A stretch of 64,000 nucleotides of DNA from Escherichia coli (lineage in GTDB: Bacteria > Pseudomonadota > Gammaproteobacteria > Enterobacterales > Enterobacteriaceae). The notes beneath the pieces are model-generated. The model was given only the letters and a program-made list of their open reading frames with translations, was not told where the DNA came from and ran no database searches. Numbering within the stretch: the first letter of the stretch is position 1; every line of letters begins with the position of its first letter. The DNA lies in assembly GCF_003334335.1 (NCBI RefSeq), contig NZ_QOWQ01000006.1; one strand, 5' to 3'. The position numbers were made by a program, and so were the translations under genes. Below are positions 22,030-51,000 of the stretch, piece after piece.

Positions 22030-22250
22030 ATTGCCTGATGCGCTACGCTCATCAGGCCTACAAAATCTATTGCAACATGTTGAATCTTCGTGCGTTTGTA
22101 GGCCGGATAAGGCGTTCACGACGCATCCGGCATTAGGTGCTCAATGCCTGATGCGCTACGCTTATCAGGCCTACAAAATCTATTGCAACATGTTGAATCT
22201 TCATGCGTTTGTAGGCGGATAAGGCGTTTTCGCCACATCAGGTAAGAGTG
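22030..22250. repeat. REP/BIME cluster with roughly 107-bp direct duplication
   Basis: gcctgatgcgctacgct(c/t)atcaggcctacaaaatctattgcaacatgttgaatcttc(g/a)tgcgtttgtaggc... occurs twice (about 22034-22115 and 22141-22222) with palindromic REP units. Confidence 0.85.
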
Positions 22251-25100: not shown

Positions 25101-25985
25101 ATGCCGCGTTTAACCGCCAAAGATTTCCCACAAGAGTTGCTGGATTACTATGACTATTACGCTCACGGGAAAATCTCGAAACGTGAGTTCCTCAACCTTG
25201 CGGCGAAGTGCGGTAGGCGGGATGACGGCATTAGCGTTGTTTGATTTGCTCAAGCCAAATTATGCGCTGGCGACTCAGGTAGAGTTTACCGACCCGGAAA
25301 TTGTTGCTGAGTACATCACGTATCCTTCGCCAAATGGTCACGGCGAGGTGCGGGGTTATCTGGTGAAGCCCGCAAAGATGAGCGGCAAAACGCCAGCCGT
25401 AGTGGTGGTGCATGAGAATCGTGGACTGAATCCGTATATCGAAGATGTGGCACGGCGAGTGGCGAAGGCGGGGTATATCGCCCTGGCACCTGACGGCTTA
25501 AGTTCCGTTGGAGGTTATCCGGGAAATGATGATAAAGGTCGTGAGCTGCAACAGCAGGTTGATCCAACAAACTGATGAATGATTTCTTTGCCGCAATTGA
25601 GTTTATGCAACGCTATCCGCAAGCGACAGGCAAAGTGGGTATTACCGGATTTTGCTATGGCGGTGGCGTATCGAACGCGGCGGCTGTCGCGTATCCGGAA
25701 CTGGCCTGCGCGGTGCCGTTTTATGGTCGTCAGGCACCCACTGCCGATGTGGCGAAGATTGAAGCGCCTTTACTACTCCACTTCGCGGAACTGGACACCC
25801 GAATCAACGAGGGCTGGCCTGCTTACGAGGCGGCGTTGAAAGCCAATAATAAGGTTTATGAGGCGTATATCTATCCGGGGGTTAATCACGGATTCCATAA
25901 TGATTCCACGCCCCGTTATGACAAATCTGCCGCCGATCTTGCCTGGCAAAGGACACTGAAATGGTTCGATAAATATCTCTCCTGA
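25101..25985 (+). pseudogene. yghX: dienelactone-hydrolase family gene yghX disrupted by two frameshifts
   Basis: Three consecutive ORF pieces (25101-25244, 25150-25575, 25575-25985) in frames 0/1/0 together reconstruct one alpha/beta hydrolase ([11 protein letters not shown]...KWFDKYLS); breaks near 25210 and in an A-run near 25570. Confidence 0.8.
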
Positions 25986-40432: not shown

Positions 40433-41782
40433 TTGGCGGGTTTTAACATCAAACATTGGTTTGCAGATGGCGCGTTTCGCACCATTATTCGCAATAGCGC
40501 CTGGTTAGGCTCCAGTAATGTCGTGAGCGCCTTGCTGGGTCTGTTGGCGCTCTCGTGTGCCGGTAAAGGGATGACGCCCGCCATGTTTGGCGTACTGGTG
40601 ATTGTGCAATCGTACGCCAAGTCGATCAGCGATTTTATTAAGTTTCAGACATGGCAACTGGTGGTTCAGTACGGAACACCAGCATTAACCAACAATAATC
40701 CGCAGCAATTCCGCAATGTCGTCTCATTTTCCTTCTCGCTGGATATCGTCAGCGGCGCGGTGGCGATTGTCGGTGGCATTGCCTTACTGCCATTCCTTTC
40801 CCATTCATTAGGTCTGGATGACCAAAGTTTTTGGCTGGCAGCGCTCTATTGCACGCTCATTCCTTCAATGGCTTCCTCCACGCCGACCGGCATTCTGCGT
40901 GCGGTAGATCGCTTCGATTTAATTGCTGTACAGCAGGCGACGAAACCTTTTCTGCGCGCAGCGGGGAGCGTCGTAGCCTGGTATTTTGACTTTGGTTTTG
41001 CGGGTTTTGTTATTGCCTGGTACGTGTCGAATCTGGTTGGCGGCACCATGTACTGGTGGTTTGCCGCGCGCGAATTACGCCGCCGAAATATCCATAACGC
41101 CTTCAAATTGAATCTGTTTGAGTCTGCCCGATACATTAAAGGCGCGTGGAGTTTTGTCTGGTCAACCAACATTGCCCACTCCATCTGGTCGGCGCGTAAC
41201 TCGTGCAGCACAGTGTTGGTGGGGATCGTGTTAGGACCCGCTGCCGCCGGGTTATTTAAAATCGCCATGACATTCTTCGACGCCGCCGGAACGCCAGCGG
41301 GTTTGCTGGGTAAAAGTTTTTACCCAGAGGTGATGCGTTTAGATCCGCGCACCACCAGACCGTGGTTGTTAGGTGTGAAGTCCGGTTTACTGGCGGGCGG
41401 AATCGGTATTCTGGTGGCGCTCGCGGTGTTGATCGTCGGCAAGCCGCTCATTTCGCTGGTGTTTGGCGTTAAGTATCTCGAAGCGTATGACCTGATTCAG
41501 GTGATGCTGGGCGCAATTGTGATTTCGATGCTGGGCTTCCCTCAGGAGTCATTGCTATTGATGGCGGGAAAACAGCGCGCTTTTCTCGTGGCGCAAACCA
41601 TCGCCTCAATCGGCTACATCGTATTGCTGTTCATGTTCTGTCATCTGTTTGGTGTGCTGGGAGCAGCGTTTGCTTACTTCGGTGGGCAATGTCTGGACGT
41701 GGCGCTCTCGTTAATTCCAACCTTAAAGGCATTTTTTCAGCGCCATTCCTTGCTTTATAACGCAGCCGGAGAGAAATCCTGA
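40433..41782 (+). CDS. yghQ: MOP-superfamily (Wzx-like) flippase YghQ, full length
   Basis: 449-aa polytopic ORF; start codon uncertain (track start is TTG); stop overlaps the next gene start (TGATG). Confidence 0.8.
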   Translation: MAGFNIKHWFADGAFRTIIRNSAWLGSSNVVSALLGLLALSCAGKGMTPAMFGVLVIVQSYAKSISDFIKFQTWQLVVQYGTPALTNNNPQQFRNVVSFSFSLDIVSGAVAIVGGIALLPFLSHSLGLDDQSFWLAALYCTLIPSMASSTPTGILRAVDRFDLIAVQQATKPFLRAAGSVVAWYFDFGFAGFVIAWYVSNLVGGTMYWWFAARELRRRNIHNAFKLNLFESARYIKGAWSFVWSTNIAHSIWSARNSCSTVLVGIVLGPAAAGLFKIAMTFFDAAGTPAGLLGKSFYPEVMRLDPRTTRPWLLGVKSGLLAGGIGILVALAVLIVGKPLISLVFGVKYLEAYDLIQVMLGAIVISMLGFPQESLLLMAGKQRAFLVAQTIASIGYIVLLFMFCHLFGVLGAAFAYFGGQCLDVALSLIPTLKAFFQRHSLLYNAAGEKS

Positions 41783-42606
41783 TGATGAGAAAATATTTCC
41801 CGCTTGAGGCGAGCGAGCGTCTATTTGTTGCGATTGAAGAAGATGATGTCGTTGATGCACAGGTTAGTTTGCCGCCGACTATTGCACTAAGTTGTACCAC
41901 CGAAATCATTCATGATAATTACGCGTTATGCCTGCAATTCTGGCTCAATGGCGTTGATCGTCAGGAGTTACTGCGTTTAGTTCGCAAACAAGCCAAAGGC
42001 GATGAGCTGACTGCTGATGAGCGCAAACAATTTAAATACATGCGAGCGCGCTACAAGCACCTGCGTTTTGCGCAACGGCTGTATTTAAAGAAGCATCAGG
42101 CCGGATTTTTATTCGGCAAAACGACCGTTTTTCTGGGGCGTTTTCAGGACGGCTTTCGTAACGGTAAGAAAAATATTGTGTCGTATTACGGCAACCTGTT
42201 ACGGATTTATTTAAGCTCTCCGGTCTGGTCGTTGGTGAACTATTCATTACGCCATAGCCAGTTAGAAAGCGTAAGCAGTTTTATTGCCTATCGGCAAAAG
42301 CAAATGCATACCCTGAAAGAGATTATTGCCAAACCGCGACTAACCGGTAGGGAATTTCATGATGTGCGAAAAATCATCAGCCAGCAGGTTTCTTATTACG
42401 ACACCTTAAGATCGCTTGATCCTGAAAATAAAGAGGCGTTACAGATATCCCGCTTCCTCGCCGCCATTAATGGCCTGATGGGAGATAAACACGACGACAT
42501 GGTGGCGGATGATATGGAAAACCGCCAGTCGTATGATGCACCGGTGGCGCTGGATAGCGATATTCGTCAGCGCTTAGAGCTGCTGATTTCGCGTTTTCCG
42601 CTATAG
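41782..42606 (+). CDS. hypothetical cytoplasmic protein (274 aa), coupled to yghQ
   Basis: ORF MMRKYFPLEASERLFVAIEEDD...; 1-nt overlap with the yghQ stop; no motif I can recognise. Confidence 0.6.
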   Translation: MMRKYFPLEASERLFVAIEEDDVVDAQVSLPPTIALSCTTEIIHDNYALCLQFWLNGVDRQELLRLVRKQAKGDELTADERKQFKYMRARYKHLRFAQRLYLKKHQAGFLFGKTTVFLGRFQDGFRNGKKNIVSYYGNLLRIYLSSPVWSLVNYSLRHSQLESVSSFIAYRQKQMHTLKEIIAKPRLTGREFHDVRKIISQQVSYYDTLRSLDPENKEALQISRFLAAINGLMGDKHDDMVADDMENRQSYDAPVALDSDIRQRLELLISRFPL

Positions 42607-42614
42607 CCGGAGCA

Positions 42615-43178
42615 ATGATGTCATCTCGTTTGATTATTGCGTTGATTATCATGCTCTTAGCCCCGGGTGTGCAGGCACACAATTTCGTCACTGGCAAAAC
42701 GGTTACCCCTGTTTATATCCAGGAAGGCGGCGAGCTGCTTCTGAATAGCGACGACGAAATTCACTACCAAAAGTGGAACAGCACACAATTAGCGGGAAAA
42801 GTCCGCATTATTCAGTATATCGCCGGGCGTAAGTCGGCGAAGAAAAAGAACTCACTGTTAATTAAAGCGGTTGAAGCGGCAAACTTTCCGCAGGATCGTT
42901 TTCAGCCCACCACCATTGTGAACACCGATGATGCCATCTTTGGTACTGGCTATTTTGTTGTTGGCAAAATCGAAAAAAATAAACGCCGCTATCCGTGGGC
43001 GCAATTCGTTATTGACGGCAATGGACAGGGACGCGTTGCCTGGCGCTTGCCGGAGCAGAGTTCAACCATTCTGGTGCTGAATAAAGCCGGGCAAATTCAG
43101 TGGGCAAAGGACGGCAGCCTGACGCCGGAAGAGGTAGATCATGTCATTGCGTTGGCGCAGAAACTGATCAATGAATAA
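42615..43178 (+). CDS. periplasmic YtfJ/HI0045-like protein
   Basis: 187-aa ORF with signal peptide MMSSRLIIALIIMLLAPGVQA and motifs (AGKVRIIQYIAGR, TTIVNTDDAI, QWAKDGSLTPEEV) that I recall from YtfJ. Confidence 0.65.
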   Translation: MMSSRLIIALIIMLLAPGVQAHNFVTGKTVTPVYIQEGGELLLNSDDEIHYQKWNSTQLAGKVRIIQYIAGRKSAKKKNSLLIKAVEAANFPQDRFQPTTIVNTDDAIFGTGYFVVGKIEKNKRRYPWAQFVIDGNGQGRVAWRLPEQSSTILVLNKAGQIQWAKDGSLTPEEVDHVIALAQKLINE

Positions 43179-43208: not shown

Positions 43209-44279
43209 ATGAAGCTGGTTGAACACTACATCATGCGTGGTACGCGCCGTCTGGTGCTGATTATCGTCGGTTTTCTGATCTTTATTTTCGCCAGCTACTC
43301 CGCACAGCGTTATCTGACCGAAGCGGCAAATGGGACATTAGCTCTTGATGTTGTGCTGGATATCGTTTTCTACAAAGTACTGATTGCACTGGAGATGTTG
43401 TTACCTGTTGGTCTGTATGTGTCAGTTGGCGTGACGCTAGGGCAGATGTATACCGACTCGGAAATTACCGCTATCTCTGCGGCGGGGGGCAGTCCGGGAC
43501 GCTTGTACAAAGCCGTTCTTTATCTGGCGATACCGCTAAGTATTTTTGTCACCCTTCTGTCGATGTATGGTCGTCCGTGGGCTTATGCGCAGATTTATCA
43601 ACTGGAGCAGCAGTCGCAGTCGGAGCTGGATGTTCGCCAGTTGCGGGCAAAGAAATTTAACACTAACGATAACGGACGAATGATCCTTTCGCAGACGGTT
43701 GATCAGGATAATAATCGCCTGACTGACGCGCTGATTTATACTTCTACTGCCAATCGAACCCGCATTTTCCGCGCCCGTTCGGTTGATGTGGTTGACCCAT
43801 CACCCGAGAAACCGACCGTTATGTTGCACAACGGCACTGCCTATCTTATCGATCATCAGGGGCGTGATGACAACGAACAGATCTACCGTAATCTGCAATT
43901 ACATCTGAATCCGCTGGATCAAAGCCCTAACGTCAAACGCAAAGCGAAATCGGTCACGGAGCTGGCGCGCTCCGTCTTTCCAGCCGATCATGCCGAACTG
44001 CAATGGCGGCAAAGCCGTGGCCTGACCGCATTGTTGATGGCGCTGCTGGCCATTTCATTAAGTCGGGTAAAACCGCGGCAAGGGCGATTTTCAACGTTAT
44101 TGCCACTGACGTTGCTGTTTATTGCCATTTTTTATGGCGGTGACGTCTGCCGTACGCTGGTGGCTAACGGCGCGATTCCCCTCATTCCTGGTTTGTGGTT
44201 AGTACCCGGACTCATGCTAATGGGCCTGCTGATGCTGGTCGCACGCGACTTCTCTTTGCTGCAGAAATTTTCCCGATGA
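43209..44279 (+). CDS. LptF/LptG-family (YjgP/YjgQ) permease, first of pair
   Basis: 356-aa ORF; YTDSEITAISAAG and KPRQGRFSTLLP resemble the LptF motifs YTESEIT and NPRQGR; multiple TM segments with a large periplasmic loop. Confidence 0.75.
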   Translation: MKLVEHYIMRGTRRLVLIIVGFLIFIFASYSAQRYLTEAANGTLALDVVLDIVFYKVLIALEMLLPVGLYVSVGVTLGQMYTDSEITAISAAGGSPGRLYKAVLYLAIPLSIFVTLLSMYGRPWAYAQIYQLEQQSQSELDVRQLRAKKFNTNDNGRMILSQTVDQDNNRLTDALIYTSTANRTRIFRARSVDVVDPSPEKPTVMLHNGTAYLIDHQGRDDNEQIYRNLQLHLNPLDQSPNVKRKAKSVTELARSVFPADHAELQWRQSRGLTALLMALLAISLSRVKPRQGRFSTLLPLTLLFIAIFYGGDVCRTLVANGAIPLIPGLWLVPGLMLMGLLMLVARDFSLLQKFSR

Positions 44280-45355
44280 ATGTTTTCAGCCGCTATTTAA
44301 TCCGTCATCTCTTTCTCGGTTTTGCCGCCGCCGCAGGGCTATTGCTGCCGCTTTTTACCACCTTCAACCTGATTAACGAACTGGATGATGTCAGCCCGGG
44401 CGGTTATCGCTGGACTCAGGCGGTGCTGGTGGTGCTAATGACCTTACCGCGCACACTGGTCGAACTTTCGCCATTTATCGCCTTATTGGGAGGGATTGTC
44501 GGCCTGGGGCAGTTATCGAAAAACAGTGAGCTTACCGCCATTCGCAGCATGGGGTTTTCTATCTTCCGTATTGCACTGGTGGCGCTGGTTGCAGGGATAT
44601 TGTGGACTGTTTCGTTAGGCGCGATAGATGAGTGGGTAGCGTCGCCATTACAGCAACAGGCGTTGCAAATCAAATCGACCGCCACCGCGTTGGGGGAGGA
44701 CGATGACATTACCGGCAATATGCTGTGGGCCAGGCGTGGTAATGAATTTGTGACGGTGAAATCGCTGAACGAGCAGGGCCAGCCGGTGGGCGTGGAGATT
44801 TTTCATTATCGCGACGATCTCTCGCTCGAATCCTACATTTATGCACGCAGTGCCACCATTGAAGACGACAAAACGTGGATCCTGCATGGTGTGAATCATA
44901 AAAAATGGCTGAATGGCAAAGAAACGCTGGAAACATTAGATAATCTTGCCTGGCAATCGGCCTTCACCAGTATGGATCTTGAAGAGTTATCAATGCCGGG
45001 CAATACTTTTTCTGTCCGTCAGCTTAATCATTACATCCATTATTTGCAGGAAACCGGGCAACCCAGCAGCGAATACCGCCTTGCACTGTGGGAAAAACTG
45101 GGGCAACCCATCCTGACCCTGGCGATGATTTTGCTGGCTGTGCCGTTTACCTTTAGCGCCCCGCGCTCGCCAGGGATGGGTAGCCGTCTCGCTGTAGGTG
45201 TCATCGTTGGCTTACTCACCTGGATCAGCTATCAAATCATGGTCAATCTGGGATTGCTATTTGCGTTGAGCGCACCTGTTACCGCGCTCGGTTTACCGAT
45301 AGCGTTTGTGCTGGTGGCGTTGAGCCTGGTGTATTGGTATGACAGACAACATTAA
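44276..45355 (+). CDS. LptF/LptG-family (YjgP/YjgQ) permease, second of pair
   Basis: Start at MNVFSRYLIRHLFLGF via ATGA overlap with the upstream stop; LptG-like motifs (ELTAIRSMGFS, RSPGMGSRLAVG); the track ORF is extended 27 codons upstream. Confidence 0.75.
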   Translation: MNVFSRYLIRHLFLGFAAAAGLLLPLFTTFNLINELDDVSPGGYRWTQAVLVVLMTLPRTLVELSPFIALLGGIVGLGQLSKNSELTAIRSMGFSIFRIALVALVAGILWTVSLGAIDEWVASPLQQQALQIKSTATALGEDDDITGNMLWARRGNEFVTVKSLNEQGQPVGVEIFHYRDDLSLESYIYARSATIEDDKTWILHGVNHKKWLNGKETLETLDNLAWQSAFTSMDLEELSMPGNTFSVRQLNHYIHYLQETGQPSSEYRLALWEKLGQPILTLAMILLAVPFTFSAPRSPGMGSRLAVGVIVGLLTWISYQIMVNLGLLFALSAPVTALGLPIAFVLVALSLVYWYDRQH

Positions 45356-45356
45356 A

Positions 45357-45383
45357 CCCGCCGTGGCGCAACACCACGGCGGG
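45357..45383. terminator. bidirectional hairpin between the permease operon and the SPT-like gene
   Basis: cccgccgtgg-cgcaaca-ccacggcggg inverted repeat. Confidence 0.6.
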
Positions 45384-45459
45384 CTCACATTACTGCTTCA
45401 GAGTAGCAAATGCCTGAATGATGGCATCGATTTGCTCACGACTGTGAGCAGCGTTTACG

Positions 45460-46569
45460 CTACAGCGCAGCAGCGTGATGCCTGCAGGCGCGGCAGGTGG
45501 CAGGTGGCAGGATAAGATTCACATAAACGCCCAGCGAAATAAGCTCGCGCCAGATGCGTAAACCGTCCTCTTTCGAACCGATTATTACCGGCACTACCGG
45601 GCTAATATGTGAACTTAACTCATAACCCAGTTTTTGCAGACCGTCATACAGATGGTTGGCATTATCCATCAGCTTTTGCCGCAGCTCTGGTTGTGTGGCA
45701 ATAGTTCTTAACGACGAGCGCACGGTCGCAATGCAGGACGGAGAAGGAGAGGCGGTAAAAATATACGGGCGGCTGCCGTAGCGCAGCACTTCCATCGCTT
45801 CCGAACCGACAGCAAAACCGCCAATCGAGGCCAGACTTTTACTGAAGGTGCCAACGATAATATCCACATCATCTTCAACGCCGACAGCTTCAGCCAGTCC
45901 GCGCCCCGTTGCGCCTAACACGCCAAACGAATGCGCTTCATCGACAATCAAATAACCACCGAGACGACGTTTGATATCAACAATTTCCGCTAACGGCGCA
46001 ACGTCACCGAGCATGCTGTAGATACCCTCAACGATGATAATCGCCTCTTTCGCCCGTTCACCGAGGCGAACCATGCGCCGTTCCAGATCTTTAGCATCGT
46101 TATGGCGGAAACGAATAATTTCCGCGCCACCGAGAGAACAGGCGTCATAAATACTGGCGTGGCTGTCGGCATCCAGTAACACCACGGCGTTATGGTCGGC
46201 AAGTGCGCTGATGACGCCTAAATTAGCGGTATAACCGGTTGAAAAAACGATAGCGGTAGGGCGATTGAAAAACTCGGCAATCTCTTTCTCTAACGCCAGG
46301 TGCGGCGCATAACTGCCGTTTGCCATACGAGAACCGGTGGTGCCGGTACCTTGGGCCGCTAACGCGGCCTGACCTTCGCTGATGGCATCATGATTAAAGG
46401 TTAAACCGAGATAATTATTGGTCCCGGCCAGAATCACTTTTTTATTGCCGATCCGGCCTTCGGTGGCGGAATACACTTCATCAATACAGGTGCCAAACGG
46501 TGTTAACCCGTTGTCACTAAATTGCAGTCGCTCGCCAGCAAGGCGCGCATATTTATCGTATAGCCCCAT
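45460..46569 (-). CDS. serine palmitoyltransferase-like alpha-oxoamine synthase (PLP-dependent), 3' end apparently frameshifted
   Basis: 369-aa ORF with GTFSKS PLP-lysine motif and class-II aminotransferase fold; C-terminus TCRACRHHAAAL is atypical, and an alternative frame restores a canonical end at the TAA at 45390-45392. Confidence 0.8.
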   Translation of the reverse strand: MGLYDKYARLAGERLQFSDNGLTPFGTCIDEVYSATEGRIGNKKVILAGTNNYLGLTFNHDAISEGQAALAAQGTGTTGSRMANGSYAPHLALEKEIAEFFNRPTAIVFSTGYTANLGVISALADHNAVVLLDADSHASIYDACSLGGAEIIRFRHNDAKDLERRMVRLGERAKEAIIIVEGIYSMLGDVAPLAEIVDIKRRLGGYLIVDEAHSFGVLGATGRGLAEAVGVEDDVDIIVGTFSKSLASIGGFAVGSEAMEVLRYGSRPYIFTASPSPSCIATVRSSLRTIATQPELRQKLMDNANHLYDGLQKLGYELSSHISPVVPVIIGSKEDGLRIWRELISLGVYVNLILPPATCRACRHHAAAL

Positions 46570-46817
46570 TATTTATTCTCCAGCCATGGAAGTAGAGTTT
46601 CCATTAATTGCGCAGGGGTTTTGACATCCAGCAGAATATTAATAGGAATGGAAATATCGAATCTGTCTTCCAGCATCATTAAGAGATCCATCACTTTGAT
46701 CGACTCCAGGCCAAGATCGTTGACGAGATCGCTGTCGGGCTTAATTTCCACACCGTTTTCGACCAAATCCTGTAAACAGGAAAGGATGTAATCCATTACT
46801 ATTTCACGATTTACCAT
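46569..46817 (-). CDS. acyl carrier protein (phosphopantetheine-binding)
   Basis: 82-aa acidic ORF with DLGLESIKVMDL Ser-attachment motif; 1-nt overlap with the downstream SPT-like start. Confidence 0.8.
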   Translation of the reverse strand: MVNREIVMDYILSCLQDLVENGVEIKPDSDLVNDLGLESIKVMDLLMMLEDRFDISIPINILLDVKTPAQLMETLLPWLENK

Positions 46818-46848: not shown

Positions 46849-47763
46849 TCAAAATAGCCCGTTGCGTAATGCGTGTTCCAGGCTAATCCCGGGAAACCAA
46901 TTAATATCTTCAGAAATACGGTTATTACTTGCCGACCAGTCGGCGTGGGTTAATTCACGAATTTTCGAGCGGGTCAGCATAGGTTCTTTACCTGCCAGGC
47001 GACTCAACGCGGTACTGATATCCGCAAGGCCGGTGAGTACCGGCAGAGGAATGCCAACCATTCGCACGGAACCGCAACGGGCGTCGGCGGCAAGTTGCTG
47101 TACGCGTTGCCAGTCATAGCCGCCGGCGACGCCATCGCATAATTCATAGGTTTGCGTCTGTATAGTTTCGGCGCTTAACCACTGACCCACTGCTTGCGCG
47201 AAATCGGTGACGTGCAGAAAAGAGAGCTGTGTATCTGGCGCACCAAGTCGTGGCAGCAGGCCGCGCAGCATCCAGTCAAACAGCGGTTTTAACTCTTTAT
47301 CGCCGGGACCATACACGGCTGTCGGGCGAAAAACGCCCAGCGTAATTTCGTCCGCCATTGCTGCCAGTCGTTGCTCGGCGACGTATTTGGATTTTGCATA
47401 CCAGGAGAGCTCGGGATGGCGCGCCGCCAGCGAAGAGATAAACAGAAAACGTTGGCAAAAGCCGCTCTCTTTTGCTGCTTGCATCAGGCGCAGGCTGCCG
47501 TCAACGTTACAGCGGGTGAAAATCTCTTCTTTGTGCCCGCGCACTTGCCCGGCGCAATGGACCACTACGCTGGCTCCGGCAACCAGCTCGCTAAGTGAAT
47601 GAGTATCTTCCAGCGAACCGCGCACCCAGGTGAGATTATCATTGACGTGAGCGCGGGCAGTACGCGTCAATGCGCGAACGTGAAAGCCGCGGGCGAGCAG
47701 GTTATCGATAATATATTTACCGATAAACCCGGTAGCGCCCGTCACCGCGACAGTTTGATTCAT
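46849..47763 (-). CDS. NAD(P)-dependent epimerase/dehydratase-family reductase (candidate 3-ketosphinganine/ceramide reductase)
   Basis: 304-aa ORF with VTGATGFIGKYI Rossmann motif and YAKSK catalytic dyad; 4-nt overlap with the upstream adenylase gene. Confidence 0.8.
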   Translation of the reverse strand: MNQTVAVTGATGFIGKYIIDNLLARGFHVRALTRTARAHVNDNLTWVRGSLEDTHSLSELVAGASVVVHCAGQVRGHKEEIFTRCNVDGSLRLMQAAKESGFCQRFLFISSLAARHPELSWYAKSKYVAEQRLAAMADEITLGVFRPTAVYGPGDKELKPLFDWMLRGLLPRLGAPDTQLSFLHVTDFAQAVGQWLSAETIQTQTYELCDGVAGGYDWQRVQQLAADARCGSVRMVGIPLPVLTGLADISTALSRLAGKEPMLTRSKIRELTHADWSASNNRISEDINWFPGISLEHALRNGLF

Positions 47764-49481
47764 GCCAGGGATTCCTGCACATTAAGACTGGCAGCATAAG
47801 CCTTCTGATAACGTTTTTTCGCTTCCGCACGGGCAGGCTTGCCGGAGGACGTTCGGGGAATACTGTGGGGCGGCAACAGATCGATAGCCGCGGTCACGCC
47901 AAATTCGCTTTGGATCCGTGCCGCCAGCGCGTGGATAAGCTGCCCGCGACGTTCTTCGTCGCTGATCCGACACTGGATCTGCAAAATGATTTTTTCCTGG
48001 GCGGTAACAAAAGCAATCGCATCGCCAGAATGAATTTCCGGTTCCTGTTCCGCTATATATTCAATATCCTGCGGCCAGATATTACGGCCACGAATAATAA
48101 TCAGATCTTTAATGCGTCCGGTGACATACAGATAACCGTCCAGCAGATAACCGAGGTCGCCGGTGTCTAACCAGCCCGTCGCGGCAATCTCGTCTTGCGA
48201 AACCTGGTCGCCAAAGTAACCGCTCATCAGACTGGGACCGGAGATGCAAATATGGCCTACCACACGTTCCGCGACCGGCATACCTGCTTCATTGCGGATT
48301 TCAATACCATGTTCCGGCAACGCTTTGCCGCAGTTGACGAAAGTCGATACGGCGCGTGTCTCTGCACCCGGCGCGACGGCTTTACCCTGATATTCGAGGA
48401 TGTCGCGATCCACTTCGTTAACCACAACCCCGGAGGCTTCATCAGAGAAGCTGACAGCCAGCGCATTTTCTGCCAGTCCGTAGCACGGCATGAAAGTTTT
48501 ATTGTCAAAGTTAACCTGACGGAAACATTCAGCGAATTGATGGAGTTGTTCTGCGGAGATGGGTTCTGCACCAATACCAGCGACGCGCCAGCAGGAAAGA
48601 TCCAGTTCAGCGAGATCTTTTTCATTCACGCGGCGCTGGCACAATTCATAGCCAAACGGCGGCGCAACGGAAACGGTGCCGCGATTTTTACTGATCAATT
48701 TAAGCCATTGCAGAGGACGCATGGCAAAATCCTGAGTGCGCAAATAATCTACTGAAAGCTGCGTGGCGACGGGGGTCAGGAGAAAGCCGACCAGTCCCAT
48801 ATCATGGTAGAAAGGCAGCCAGGAGACGCAGCGGTCGCCAGGGCGTAATTTAATGCCGTCGTGGCTTATAGCACGTAGATTAGCCATCACTTCGCGATGG
48901 GTGATAATGACGCCACGGGGAAAACGGGTGCTGCCGGAGGTGTACTGGAGGTAGGCGATATCGTTCGGAACTGGACGCTGGAGCGCAACATCGGCTTCCG
49001 GTAATGCCTTAAACCAGGCGTGGCTTAAAACATGTAATTCGGGGTTGTCATGCGTCGCGGCATTGACCAGTGGCAACCACTCATCACCAGTGATAATGGC
49101 TGCGGGCTGGCAACTTGCCAGTAAACCCTGCAATTTGGCGCTCCAGGAATCCCGCTGACCAACGCCCATTGGAATCGCCAACGGGACGGCGACTAAGCCG
49201 GCATACTGGCAGGCAAAAAAAGCCTCTACGAACTCGCTACTTGTTTCGGCAATCAGTGCCACGCGATCGCCTTTTTTCAGGTTCAGCGATAACAACCGCT
49301 TCGCACCAGCTTCGGCACGTGCTTTTAACGTCTGATATTCCAGTTGATCTTCAAGTTGGCAACGTCTGTCATAAAAATTCATTCCGGCGCTACTCAGAGC
49401 GGCGTAGTCCAAAGCATCAACAAGCGTTGGAAAATCGGCATAGCGCATAGGTAGGGAATGCGTAAAGATTTTATTAGACAT
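47760..49481 (-). CDS. fatty acyl-AMP ligase / acyl-ACP synthetase-like adenylating enzyme
   Basis: About 573 aa with AMP-binding core YTSGSTRFPRGV and TGDLGY motif; start uncertain (track starts at GTG 49490, ATG at 49481). Confidence 0.8.
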   Translation of the reverse strand: MSNKIFTHSLPMRYADFPTLVDALDYAALSSAGMNFYDRRCQLEDQLEYQTLKARAEAGAKRLLSLNLKKGDRVALIAETSSEFVEAFFACQYAGLVAVPLAIPMGVGQRDSWSAKLQGLLASCQPAAIITGDEWLPLVNAATHDNPELHVLSHAWFKALPEADVALQRPVPNDIAYLQYTSGSTRFPRGVIITHREVMANLRAISHDGIKLRPGDRCVSWLPFYHDMGLVGFLLTPVATQLSVDYLRTQDFAMRPLQWLKLISKNRGTVSVAPPFGYELCQRRVNEKDLAELDLSCWRVAGIGAEPISAEQLHQFAECFRQVNFDNKTFMPCYGLAENALAVSFSDEASGVVVNEVDRDILEYQGKAVAPGAETRAVSTFVNCGKALPEHGIEIRNEAGMPVAERVVGHICISGPSLMSGYFGDQVSQDEIAATGWLDTGDLGYLLDGYLYVTGRIKDLIIIRGRNIWPQDIEYIAEQEPEIHSGDAIAFVTAQEKIILQIQCRISDEERRGQLIHALAARIQSEFGVTAAIDLLPPHSIPRTSSGKPARAEAKKRYQKAYAASLNVQESLA

Positions 49482-49857: not shown

Positions 49858-51000
49858 ATGGAATGCGATCTGCTGATGATTAAAATTGAAAAAGTAATTA
49901 ATAAAAATGACCTTAAGGCATTTATCGCTTTTCCGTCATCACTTTATCCCGACGATCCAAACTGGATACCCCCTTTATTCATTGAACGCAACGAGCATTT
50001 GTCTGCGAAAAATCCGGGGACGGACCATATCATCTGGCAGGCGTGGGTAGCAAAAAAAGCGGGGCAGATAGTTGGGCGTATTACCGCGCAAATAGATACC
50101 TTGCACCGCGAGCGTTACGGCAAAGATACCGGTCATTTCGGCATGATTGACGCCATTGATGATCCGCAGGTTTTTGCCGCGTTGTTTGGCGCAGCGGAAG
50201 CGTGGTTGAAGTCACAAGGTGCAAGTAAGATCAGCGGTCCTTTCAGCCTGAATATCAATCAGGAAAGCGGATTACTGATTGAAGGTTTTGACACACCACC
50301 CTGTGCGATGATGCCACACGGCAAACCGTGGTATGCCGCGCATATTGAACAACTGGGTTATCACAAAGGCATTGATTTACTGGCGTGGTGGATGCAGCGA
50401 ACCGATCTCACTTTCTCTCCGGCGCTAAAAAAACTGATGGATCAGGTGCGCAAAAAGGTGACCATTCGCTGCATCAATCGTCAGCGGTTTGCCGAAGAGA
50501 TGCAGATCCTGCGTGAGATTTTCAACTCTGGCTGGCAGCACAACTGGGGATTTGTGCCGTTTACCGAACATGAATTCGCGACCATGGGCGATCAACTTAA
50601 ATATCTGGTGCCGGACGATATGATCTATATCGCTGAGATTGATTCTGCACCCTGCGCGTTTATTGTCGGCTTGCCGAACATCAACGAGGCGATTGCCGAT
50701 CTGAACGGATCGCTCTTTCCCTTCGGCTGGGCAAAATTGCTGTGGCGTTTGAAAGTCAGCGGTGTGCGAACTGCGCGAGTACCGCTGATGGGCGTGCGCG
50801 ACGAGTATCAGTTCAGCCGCATCGGCCCGGTGATTGCGCTGTTATTGATTGAAGCCTTACGCGATCCGTTTGCCCGCCGGAAGATCGATGCGCTGGAGAT
50901 GTCATGGATCCTCGAAACCAATACAGGCATGAATAACATGCTGGAACGCATTGGGGCGGAGCCGTACAAGCGTTACCGATTGTATGAAAAGCAGATTTAA
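49858..51000 (+). CDS. yghO: YghO, intact (candidate N-acyltransferase; pseudogene in K-12)
   Basis: About 380 aa from MECDLLMIKIEK (track ORF starts at TTG 49780); divergent from the lipid operon; start uncertain. Confidence 0.7.
   Translation: MECDLLMIKIEKVINKNDLKAFIAFPSSLYPDDPNWIPPLFIERNEHLSAKNPGTDHIIWQAWVAKKAGQIVGRITAQIDTLHRERYGKDTGHFGMIDAIDDPQVFAALFGAAEAWLKSQGASKISGPFSLNINQESGLLIEGFDTPPCAMMPHGKPWYAAHIEQLGYHKGIDLLAWWMQRTDLTFSPALKKLMDQVRKKVTIRCINRQRFAEEMQILREIFNSGWQHNWGFVPFTEHEFATMGDQLKYLVPDDMIYIAEIDSAPCAFIVGLPNINEAIADLNGSLFPFGWAKLLWRLKVSGVRTARVPLMGVRDEYQFSRIGPVIALLLIEALRDPFARRKIDALEMSWILETNTGMNNMLERIGAEPYKRYRLYEKQI

What the first reader, a model, noticed from the sequence alone, without database searches (positions are those of the whole stretch)
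45390..45512. SPT-like gene is frameshifted at its 3' end inside a 7-nt tandem repeat
On the minus strand the gene reads ...LILPPA then CTGCCAC CTGCCAC CTGCCGC and ends in TCRACRHHAAAL*. Removing one 7-nt unit (plus-strand ggcaggt at about 45492-45505), or an equivalent 1-nt correction in that stretch, gives ...LILPPAAPAGITLLRCSVNAAHSREQIDAIIQAFATLKQ*. That ending resembles the conserved C-terminus I recall for bacterial serine palmitoyltransferases, and it stops at TAA 45390-45392 right next to the hairpin at 45357-45383. So the annotated 369-aa product probably lacks the native last ~26 residues. This could be a real inactivating or slippage-prone mutation, or an assembly error.
Basis: seen in the sequence. 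Interest (0 to 1): 0.75.

Follow-up and report, generated by a model that had tools for sequence, protein, structure and literature searches.

The report
Seven-base duplication breaks E. coli spt
A 7-base tandem duplication, found in one minor E. coli lineage and in none of 4,085 complete genomes carrying this stretch, shifts the reading frame of the serine palmitoyltransferase gene and removes its catalytically essential tail: a real but ordinary loss-of-function mutation.

Summary
On the minus strand the gene (46569..45460, 369 aa) runs through CTGCCAC CTGCCAC CTGCCGC and stops early at TAG 45462-45460. Deleting any one 7-nt register within 45492-45511 gives exactly the 390-aa spt of E. coli BL21 (WP_000524970.1), which ends at TAA 45392-45390 beside the hairpin at 45353-45387.

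The gene is the serine palmitoyltransferase of the E. coli aasR-epi-acpR-spt / yghO ceramide cluster. The 390-aa form has been shown experimentally to make 3-oxo-sphinganine.

All 4,085 complete RefSeq E. coli genomes carrying this stretch have two units. None has three, and none has one. The three-unit allele is still not an assembly artefact. The exact 369-aa product was assembled in 11 Logan contigs. The five loci I fetched, from five different sequencing runs, all carry the three units on a nearly identical background (0-2 SNPs, four haplotypes).

The frameshift cuts the conserved PPA|APAG...LLR loop. It removes 33 native residues (not about 26), including R366, the equivalent of the catalytic Arg390 of Sphingomonas SPT. 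Every other gene in the cluster is intact.

Verdict: a recent, lineage-private, probably inactivating slippage duplication. It is not a hot spot. Interest is low.

The parts
45460..46569 (-). Truncated spt ORF. It encodes 369 aa: residues 1-357 are native and 358-369 (TCRACRHHAAAL) are out of frame. The premature TAG is at 45462-45460.
   Evidence: NCBIfam NF047599 serine palmitoyltransferase scores 554.9 bits and covers only profile positions 1-361 of 394.
45490..45511 (-). The 7-nt tandem tract: CTGCCAC, CTGCCAC, CTGCCGC. The wild type has CTGCCAC CTGCCGC only. The extra unit is the frameshifting lesion. It can be placed in any register between 45492 and 45511.
   Evidence: TRF; deletion test; uniqueness within the window; 0 of 4,085 genomes have three units.
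45390..45459 (-). Remainder of the native spt coding sequence, now out of frame and untranslated. The native stop TAA is at 45392-45390. Together with 45460-45489 it encodes the lost residues 358-390, APAGITLLRCSVNAAHSREQIDAIIQAFATLKQ.
   Evidence: The segment aligns with the SpSPT C-terminus.
45353..45387 (-). G+C-rich hairpin of 16 pairs between the convergent genes spt and lptG-like. It is a probable bidirectional terminator, starting 3 nt after the native TAA.
   Evidence: sequence.
46569..46817 (-). acpR, the specialised acyl carrier protein (82 aa). Its stop overlaps the spt start by 1 nt (TAATG). It is intact.
   Evidence: The BL21 homologue is ECD_02853 in PMC9386255.
46849..47763 (-). 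epi, an NAD-dependent epimerase/dehydratase family gene and the presumptive 3-oxo-sphinganine/ceramide reductase. It is intact and identical to the BL21 protein.
47760..49448 (-). aasR, a fatty acyl-AMP ligase and specialised acyl-ACP synthetase (562 aa as annotated in BL21). It is intact, with 3 aa differences from BL21.
49858..51000 (+). yghO (aca), the acyl-CoA N-acyltransferase of dihydroceramide synthesis. It is intact and identical to the BL21 protein. Coordinates were mapped from L007.

Best explanation
The gene is the serine palmitoyltransferase (spt) of the E. coli sphingolipid/ceramide cluster (aasR-epi-acpR-spt plus yghO). In the ancestor of one minor E. coli lineage, replication slippage between the two adjacent CCTGCC(A/G) heptamers duplicated one 7-nt unit. 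That shifts the frame after codon 357, inside the conserved PPA|APAG-ITLLR loop. Translation ends 12 codons later at a TAG. The product lacks the last 33 residues: the mobile 'PPATP' loop remainder, R366 (the equivalent of SpSPT Arg390, which binds the serine carboxylate and is needed to form the quinonoid), and the terminal part of the C-terminal domain. The enzyme is therefore very probably dead, so this lineage cannot make 3-oxo-sphinganine even though its other pathway genes are intact. spt is the last gene of its operon, so no polar effect is expected. Shown here: the lesion, its absence from all complete genomes, its inheritance in independent samples, and which residues are lost. Inferred: the slippage mechanism and the loss of activity.
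For: Deleting one unit gives BL21 spt exactly. A 90-nt probe across the repeat matches 4,085 genomes, all with the 83-nt two-unit form and none at 95% identity or above. The gene-wide best match is 99.5% with 1274 bases against 1281. The closest complete genome differs by 12 SNPs and this single indel over 41.9 kb. The exact 369-aa protein is on record from 11 Logan contigs. Loci L002-L006, from five different runs, all carry CTGCCACCTGCCACCTGCCGC and differ from the window by 0-2 SNPs at different positions. SpSPT (2JG2) matches at E = 4e-111, and PPATPAGTFLLR(379-390) aligns with E. coli PPAAPAGITLLR(355-366). The roles of that loop and of Arg390 are described in PMC3794620, PMC6148460 and PMC11906848. 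In NCBIfam NF047599 the truncated form covers profile positions 1-361 of 394 and the repaired form 1-390. BL21 SPT (ECD_02854), with the same sequence as the repaired allele, makes 3-oxo-sphinganine with AcpR and AasR (PMC9386255). All other genes from glcB to gss are intact.
Against: No reads were available for the window's own assembly. No activity data exist for a truncated E. coli SPT. H137, D210, H213 and the PLP lysine K244 are all retained, and the truncated protein still scores above the family cut-off (554.9 against 500 bits), so some residual folding or PLP binding cannot be excluded. Whether E. coli expresses this cluster natively, and what the lipid does, was not established in the papers I read, so the phenotypic effect of the loss is unknown. 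No sample metadata could be read for the Logan runs, so some of them could be repeat sequencing of one strain.
Confidence: 0.88

Rival explanations
1. The extra 7 nt is a sequencing or assembly error in the source genome, and the real gene is intact.
For: No complete RefSeq genome has it. Genomes that are otherwise nearly identical have two units.
Against: The same allele was assembled in 11 Logan contigs and was verified at DNA level in five loci from five different runs, with different private SNPs. The whole tract is 20-21 nt, short enough to be spanned by single reads or k-mers (inference). The segment has no homopolymer run of 4 or more, so the usual indel error modes do not apply. The locus was assembled as two units in 4,085 other genomes, so it is not systematically misassembled.
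Confidence: 0.03
2. The repeat is a slippage-prone, phase-variable contingency switch that turns sphingolipid synthesis on and off by gaining or losing 7-nt units.
For: The lesion is a unit-number change in a tandem repeat. The three-unit tract (14 nt perfect plus 6) should revert more readily than it arose (inference).
Against: Unit number is invariant in complete genomes: 0 with three units, 0 with four and 0 with one out of 4,085. No expansion was found in JGI metagenome contigs. Every carrier examined shares one near-identical background, which points to a single event. The wild type has only two imperfect units, far fewer than typical contingency loci (general knowledge). The site lies at the 3' end of the gene.
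Confidence: 0.04
3. The 369-aa protein is still a working SPT, or has a new function, so the allele is neutral or adaptive rather than null.
For: The PLP lysine and the His/Asp catalytic residues are retained, and the family score stays above the cut-off. The allele has persisted long enough to accumulate a few SNPs among carriers.
Against: The truncated form lacks the Arg390 equivalent. Mutating that arginine in the S. wittichii enzyme abolishes detectable quinonoid formation (PMC6148460). It also lacks the rest of the conserved PPATP loop (PMC3794620). The 390-aa length and C-terminus are conserved in E. coli and E. ruysiae, and the C-terminal sequence is conserved as far as Sphingomonas. 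Persistence is equally expected for a neutral null, because K-12-type strains lack the gene altogether: 1,290 of 5,426 genomes have no match.
Confidence: 0.05
4. Ribosomal +1 frameshifting, or transcriptional slippage, between the duplication and the TAG restores the native C-terminus in some of the product.
For: A rare AGG codon lies in the shifted frame (TGC AGG CAT). A +1 shift there would give ...PPATCRAC-GITLLRCS... and retain R366 (inference).
Against: The P-site codons do not allow re-pairing in the +1 frame, so there is no slippery motif. There is no homopolymer run for transcriptional slippage. The site is not conserved, because the allele is private to one lineage.
Confidence: 0.02

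Closest known systems
E. coli BL21(DE3) serine palmitoyltransferase ECD_02854 (WP_000524970.1, 390 aa), of the aasR-epi-acpR-spt / yghO cluster (Padilla-Gomez et al. 2022, PMC9386255)
   Same: The DNA is identical over the whole gene once one 7-nt unit is removed. The operon, neighbours and chromosomal site (glc operon - yghO ... yghS/yghT - pitB - gss) are the same.
   Different: The window allele has one extra CTGCCAC unit. Its product is 369 aa and lacks residues 358-390.
Sphingomonas paucimobilis SPT (PDB 2JG2, 2W8J), the structural and mechanistic reference for bacterial SPT
   Same: The match is E = 4e-111 over residues 3-385. H159, D231, H234, K265 and R390 correspond to E. coli H137, D210, H213, K244 and R366. 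PPATPAGTFLLR corresponds to PPAAPAGITLLR.
   Different: SpSPT Arg378 aligns with a Leu in E. coli. The E. coli enzyme prefers acyl-AcpR to acyl-CoA (PMC9386255). The window allele ends inside the loop.
Other natural losses of spt in E. coli: absence of the gene in K-12-type genomes, and an IS1 insertion at the 5' end of spt in strain 2023CK-01509
   Same: All of these remove SPT function from an E. coli lineage. 1,290 of 5,426 complete genomes have no spt match. In NZ_CP141736.1 an IS1 lies between acpR and a shortened spt.
   Different: Here the lesion is a 7-nt tandem duplication at the 3' end, and all the other pathway genes are left intact.
Simple-sequence contingency loci (phase variation by slipped-strand mispairing)
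   Same: A change in the number of short tandem units shifts the reading frame.
   Different: There are only two imperfect units in the wild type, and no variation in unit number among 4,085 genomes. The carriers share a single background. The site is at the 3' end of the gene.

Membership tests
Serine palmitoyltransferase, proteobacterial type (NCBIfam NF047599, alpha-oxoamine synthase family) | Whole-protein score above the curated equivalog cut-off of 500 bits | tested here: met
   The truncated form scores 554.9 bits and the repaired form 599.2 bits. The next SPT models and the bioF/kbl models all fall below their own cut-offs.
Serine palmitoyltransferase, proteobacterial type (NCBIfam NF047599, alpha-oxoamine synthase family) | PLP-binding lysine and the catalytic His/Asp/His (SpSPT K265, H159, D231, H234) | tested here: met
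   K244, H137, D210 and H213 are present in both forms.
Serine palmitoyltransferase, proteobacterial type (NCBIfam NF047599, alpha-oxoamine synthase family) | Complete PPATP loop and the conserved arginine (SpSPT 379-PPATPAGTFLLR-390) | tested here: not met
   The window allele reads PPA then TCRACRHHAAAL*, so R366 is absent. The repaired allele has PPAAPAGITLLR at 355-366. The motif's role is described in PMC3794620 and PMC6148460. The locus is therefore an spt pseudogene or null allele, not a complete member.
Serine palmitoyltransferase, proteobacterial type (NCBIfam NF047599, alpha-oxoamine synthase family) | Full-length coverage of the family profile | tested here: not met
   The truncated form covers profile positions 1-361 of 394. 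The repaired form covers 1-390.
Serine palmitoyltransferase, proteobacterial type (NCBIfam NF047599, alpha-oxoamine synthase family) | Gene preceded by the specialised acpR, with aasR nearby | tested here: met
   acpR lies at 46569-46817, overlapping the spt start. epi and aasR lie upstream and yghO is adjacent.
Serine palmitoyltransferase, proteobacterial type (NCBIfam NF047599, alpha-oxoamine synthase family) | Condenses L-serine with an acyl thioester to form 3-oxo-sphinganine | not testable with these tools
   This has been shown for the 390-aa BL21 protein (PMC9386255). It has not been tested for the 369-aa form.
Phase-variable simple-sequence contingency locus | Repeat-unit number varies among isolates of the species | tested here: not met
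   Of 4,085 complete genomes, none has one, three or four units. No expansion was found in JGI metagenome contigs.
Phase-variable simple-sequence contingency locus | The same variant arises repeatedly on unrelated backgrounds | tested here: not met
   All five carrier loci examined differ from the window by 2 SNPs or fewer over 3-21 kb.
Phase-variable simple-sequence contingency locus | High and reversible switching rate within a clone | not testable with these tools
   This needs fluctuation assays or deep read data.

The most novel reading that the evidence does not exclude
The three-unit allele is a reversible natural off-state. The 14-nt perfect tandem repeat would revert by slippage at a useful rate, giving this lineage a heritable on/off switch for sphingolipid production. 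If it does not revert, the lineage is still a clean natural spt-null with every other pathway gene intact, which could show what the otherwise unexplained E. coli sphingolipid cluster is for.
Probability: 0.04. Interest if true: 0.35.

Novelty: already known. Interest (0 to 1): 0.12.

Why it matters
It matters only modestly. For annotation, the 369-aa ORF should be flagged as a frameshifted spt pseudogene and not as a functional aminotransferase. For biology, it adds a third kind of natural spt loss in E. coli, alongside absence of the gene in K-12-type genomes and an IS1 insertion in another strain. That fits a cluster that is dispensable in many niches. For practical use, isolates of this lineage are ready-made spt-null strains with aasR, epi, acpR, yghO and the LptF/LptG-like genes intact. 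Compared with their two-unit near-relatives (for example WP5-S17-ESBL-10, 12 SNPs apart over 42 kb), they could help test the role of E. coli sphingolipids.

Tried and rejected
(1) I looked for the three-unit allele in 5,426 complete E. coli genomes and found none. (2) I looked for a one-unit contraction in the same set and found none. The single record in the 95-99% band is presumably the one match that covers less than 80% of the query. (3) I scanned JGI metagenome contigs for expansions with 14-28 nt between the exact flanks and got 0 hits. That pattern requires exact flanks, so divergent phylogroups could be missed. (4) I tried to identify the source genome. No complete RefSeq genome is identical, and the closest ones differ by a few SNPs plus the indel. 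No metadata could be read for the Logan runs. (5) I considered a recoding rescue by +1 frameshifting or transcriptional slippage. There is no slippery motif and no homopolymer run, so I rejected it. (6) I considered that the short form might be the native one. The 390-aa form is universal in the complete genomes, is conserved as far as Sphingomonas and is experimentally active, so I rejected this too. (7) I did not run a structure prediction, because close solved homologues already define the lost segment.

Full report
OBSERVATION. On the minus strand the ORF 46569..45460 (369 aa) reads ...GVYVNLILPPA. It then passes through CTGCCAC CTGCCAC CTGCCGC and ends ...TCRACRHHAAAL-TAG at 45462-45460. 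Tandem Repeats Finder reports a period-7 tract of 2.9 copies with 100% matches at 45492-45511. It is the only perfect tandem tract of period 4-12 and comparable length in the 64-kb window. Shuffled sequence gave a mean of 0.07 such tracts. The neighbouring frame reads ...LPPAAPAGITLLRCSVNAAHSREQIDAIIQAFATLKQ and stops at TAA 45392-45390. That stop lies 3 nt before a 16-pair G+C-rich hairpin at 45353-45387. The description is therefore accurate. The only correction is that 33 native residues (358-390) are lost and 12 foreign ones are added, not about 26 lost.

WHAT THE GENE IS. In RefSeq E. coli genomes the locus is annotated spt, serine palmitoyltransferase. It is preceded by an acyl carrier protein gene, an NAD-dependent epimerase-family gene and a fatty acyl-AMP ligase gene. 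yghO lies beyond those, and an LptF/LptG-like pair is convergent with spt. The repaired protein scores 599.2 bits on the NCBIfam equivalog NF047599 (cut-off 500) and covers profile positions 1-390 of 394. The truncated protein scores 554.9 bits but covers only 1-361. The best solved relative is Sphingomonas paucimobilis SPT (2JG2, E = 4e-111). Padilla-Gomez et al. 2022 (PMC9386255) cloned exactly this cluster from BL21(DE3): aasR ECD_02851, epi ECD_02852, acpR ECD_02853, spt ECD_02854 and yghO ECD_02850. They showed that SPT(Ec) forms 3-oxo-sphinganine with its AcpR and AasR. Removing any one 7-nt register between 45492 and 45511 turns the window gene into the BL21 gene base for base. The 390-aa form is therefore the experimentally active one.

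IS THE THREE-UNIT FORM NATIVE? No. The gene is present in 4,136 of 5,426 complete RefSeq E. coli genomes. The best identity to the window is 99.5%, with 1274 bases in the record against 1281 in the query. A 90-nt probe centred on the repeat matched 4,085 genomes. All of them carry the 83-nt two-unit form (best 92.2% identity), and none reached 95%. A four-unit genome would have ranked first in that search, and none did. A probe with only one unit found no full match either. A pattern scan of JGI metagenome contigs for 14-28 nt between the exact flanks, which would catch three to five units, found nothing.

IS IT AN ARTEFACT? No. The exact 369-aa product is on record from 11 contigs of Logan, which holds assemblies of public sequencing runs. 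The 390-aa protein is on record from more than 1,000 contigs. I fetched five loci from five different runs: ERR13330971, SRR30938087, ERR10114333, ERR10140859 and SRR27904302. All five carry CTGCCACCTGCCACCTGCCGC. They differ from the window by 0-2 substitutions over 3-21 kb, and the positions differ between samples. L002 and L005 share one at 50049, where the window base is the derived one. L003 has two others and L004 has another. That gives about four haplotypes on one background, which means an allele inherited in a slightly diversified clonal lineage. The tract is only 20-21 nt and the segment has no homopolymer run. Neither k-mer assembly nor the usual indel error modes would create it (inference). 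The closest complete genome, WP5-S17-ESBL-10, differs from the window by 12 SNPs and this single indel over 41.9 kb. The mutation is therefore recent.

HOW IT AROSE (inference). The wild-type sequence ATC-CTGCCAC-CTGCCGC-GCCTGCAGG contains CCTGCC twice at a spacing of 7 nt. Replication slippage between these two copies duplicates exactly one heptamer. This is a classical microhomology-mediated tandem duplication. One event on one background explains all the carriers I examined.

CONSEQUENCE. Alignment with SpSPT places E. coli H137, D210, H213 and K244 (the PLP lysine) opposite SpSPT H159, D231, H234 and K265. All four are retained. The frameshift falls inside the conserved motif. SpSPT 379-PPATPAGTFLLR-390 corresponds to E. 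coli 355-PPAAPAGITLLR-366, and the mutant reads PPA then TCRACRHH. This loop changes conformation during catalysis (PMC3794620). Arg390 takes over the L-serine carboxylate after the acyl thioester binds. Mutating the equivalent arginine in the S. wittichii enzyme leaves the external aldimine intact but abolishes detectable quinonoid (PMC6148460; see also PMC11906848). The truncated protein lacks this arginine and the last 24 residues of the C-terminal domain. I therefore infer an inactive and possibly unstable enzyme. All other genes from glcB to gss are intact in one frame, and most are identical to the BL21 proteins. spt is the last gene of its operon and its terminator is untouched, so no polar effect is expected. 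I found no slippery sequence or homopolymer that could rescue the frame by recoding.

CONTEXT. spt is dispensable in E. coli. 1,290 of 5,426 complete genomes have no match at all. Strain 2023CK-01509 has an IS1 between acpR and a shortened spt. The present allele is one more independent loss.

COMPARISON AND NOVELTY. The gene, its cluster, its biochemistry and the role of the lost motif are all published. Frameshift pseudogenes made by short tandem duplications are commonplace. I did not find this particular allele described in the papers I read, but it does not amount to a new kind of feature. It fails the tests for a contingency locus: unit number does not vary, it has not recurred on other backgrounds, and the wild type has only two imperfect units. 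The remaining mildly interesting possibility is that the lineage is a natural, potentially revertible spt-null. I give the reversible-switch reading about 4%.

VERDICT. The lesion is a real, lineage-private 7-nt tandem duplication that very probably inactivates spt. It is not an assembly error, not the native form and not a hot spot. Interest is low (0.12).

Noticed in passing
window 43209-44279 and 44276-45355 (+); also about 40433-41782, 41782-42606 and 42618-43178: A second LptF/LptG-like permease pair is convergent with spt. Upstream of it lie a Polysacc_synt flippase-like gene, a hypothetical gene and a YtfJ-family gene. PGAP names the pair lptF/lptG, but they sit in the sphingolipid region. 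The Caulobacter sphingolipid region likewise encodes LptC2/LptF2/LptG2 and a flippase, proposed there to export sphingolipids (PMC11324152). The E. coli pair may do the same. I saw no LptB-type ATPase or LptC2 gene annotated beside it.
   Followed up: partly
window about 25101-25985 (+): yghX is annotated 'frameshifted' in the closest complete genome (L007 4602-5486). The window is identical there except for one SNP at 25515, so it presumably carries the same pseudogene.
   Followed up: no
window 61078-61139: A 30-nt unit is repeated 2.1 times at 78% match (score 75, the strongest tandem repeat in the window). It lies inside the 5' part of sslE, the lipoprotein metalloprotease gene, which runs off the window end. 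One of the SNPs against L007 (61132) lies inside it.
   Followed up: no
window 50049 (in yghO): The window has a substitution that is absent from the other three-unit carriers covering this site (L002, L005) and from the closest two-unit genome. The YghO protein is unchanged, so it is a synonymous mutation that arose after the duplication.
   Followed up: yes
L008 (NZ_CP141736.1 3809534-3812184), equivalent to window about 46450-46570: In strain 2023CK-01509 an IS1A element sits between acpR and a shortened spt (375 aa as annotated). This is an independent natural disruption of the same gene.
   Followed up: partly
window about 22116-22145: The alignment with the closest complete genome breaks here into two overlapping pieces with a 1-nt indel, in the exbD-yghA spacer. 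It is probably a short repeat or indel polymorphism.
   Followed up: no
window 46567-46571: The acpR stop and the spt start overlap (TAATG, sharing nt 46569). This suggests the acyl carrier protein and SPT are translationally coupled.
   Followed up: no
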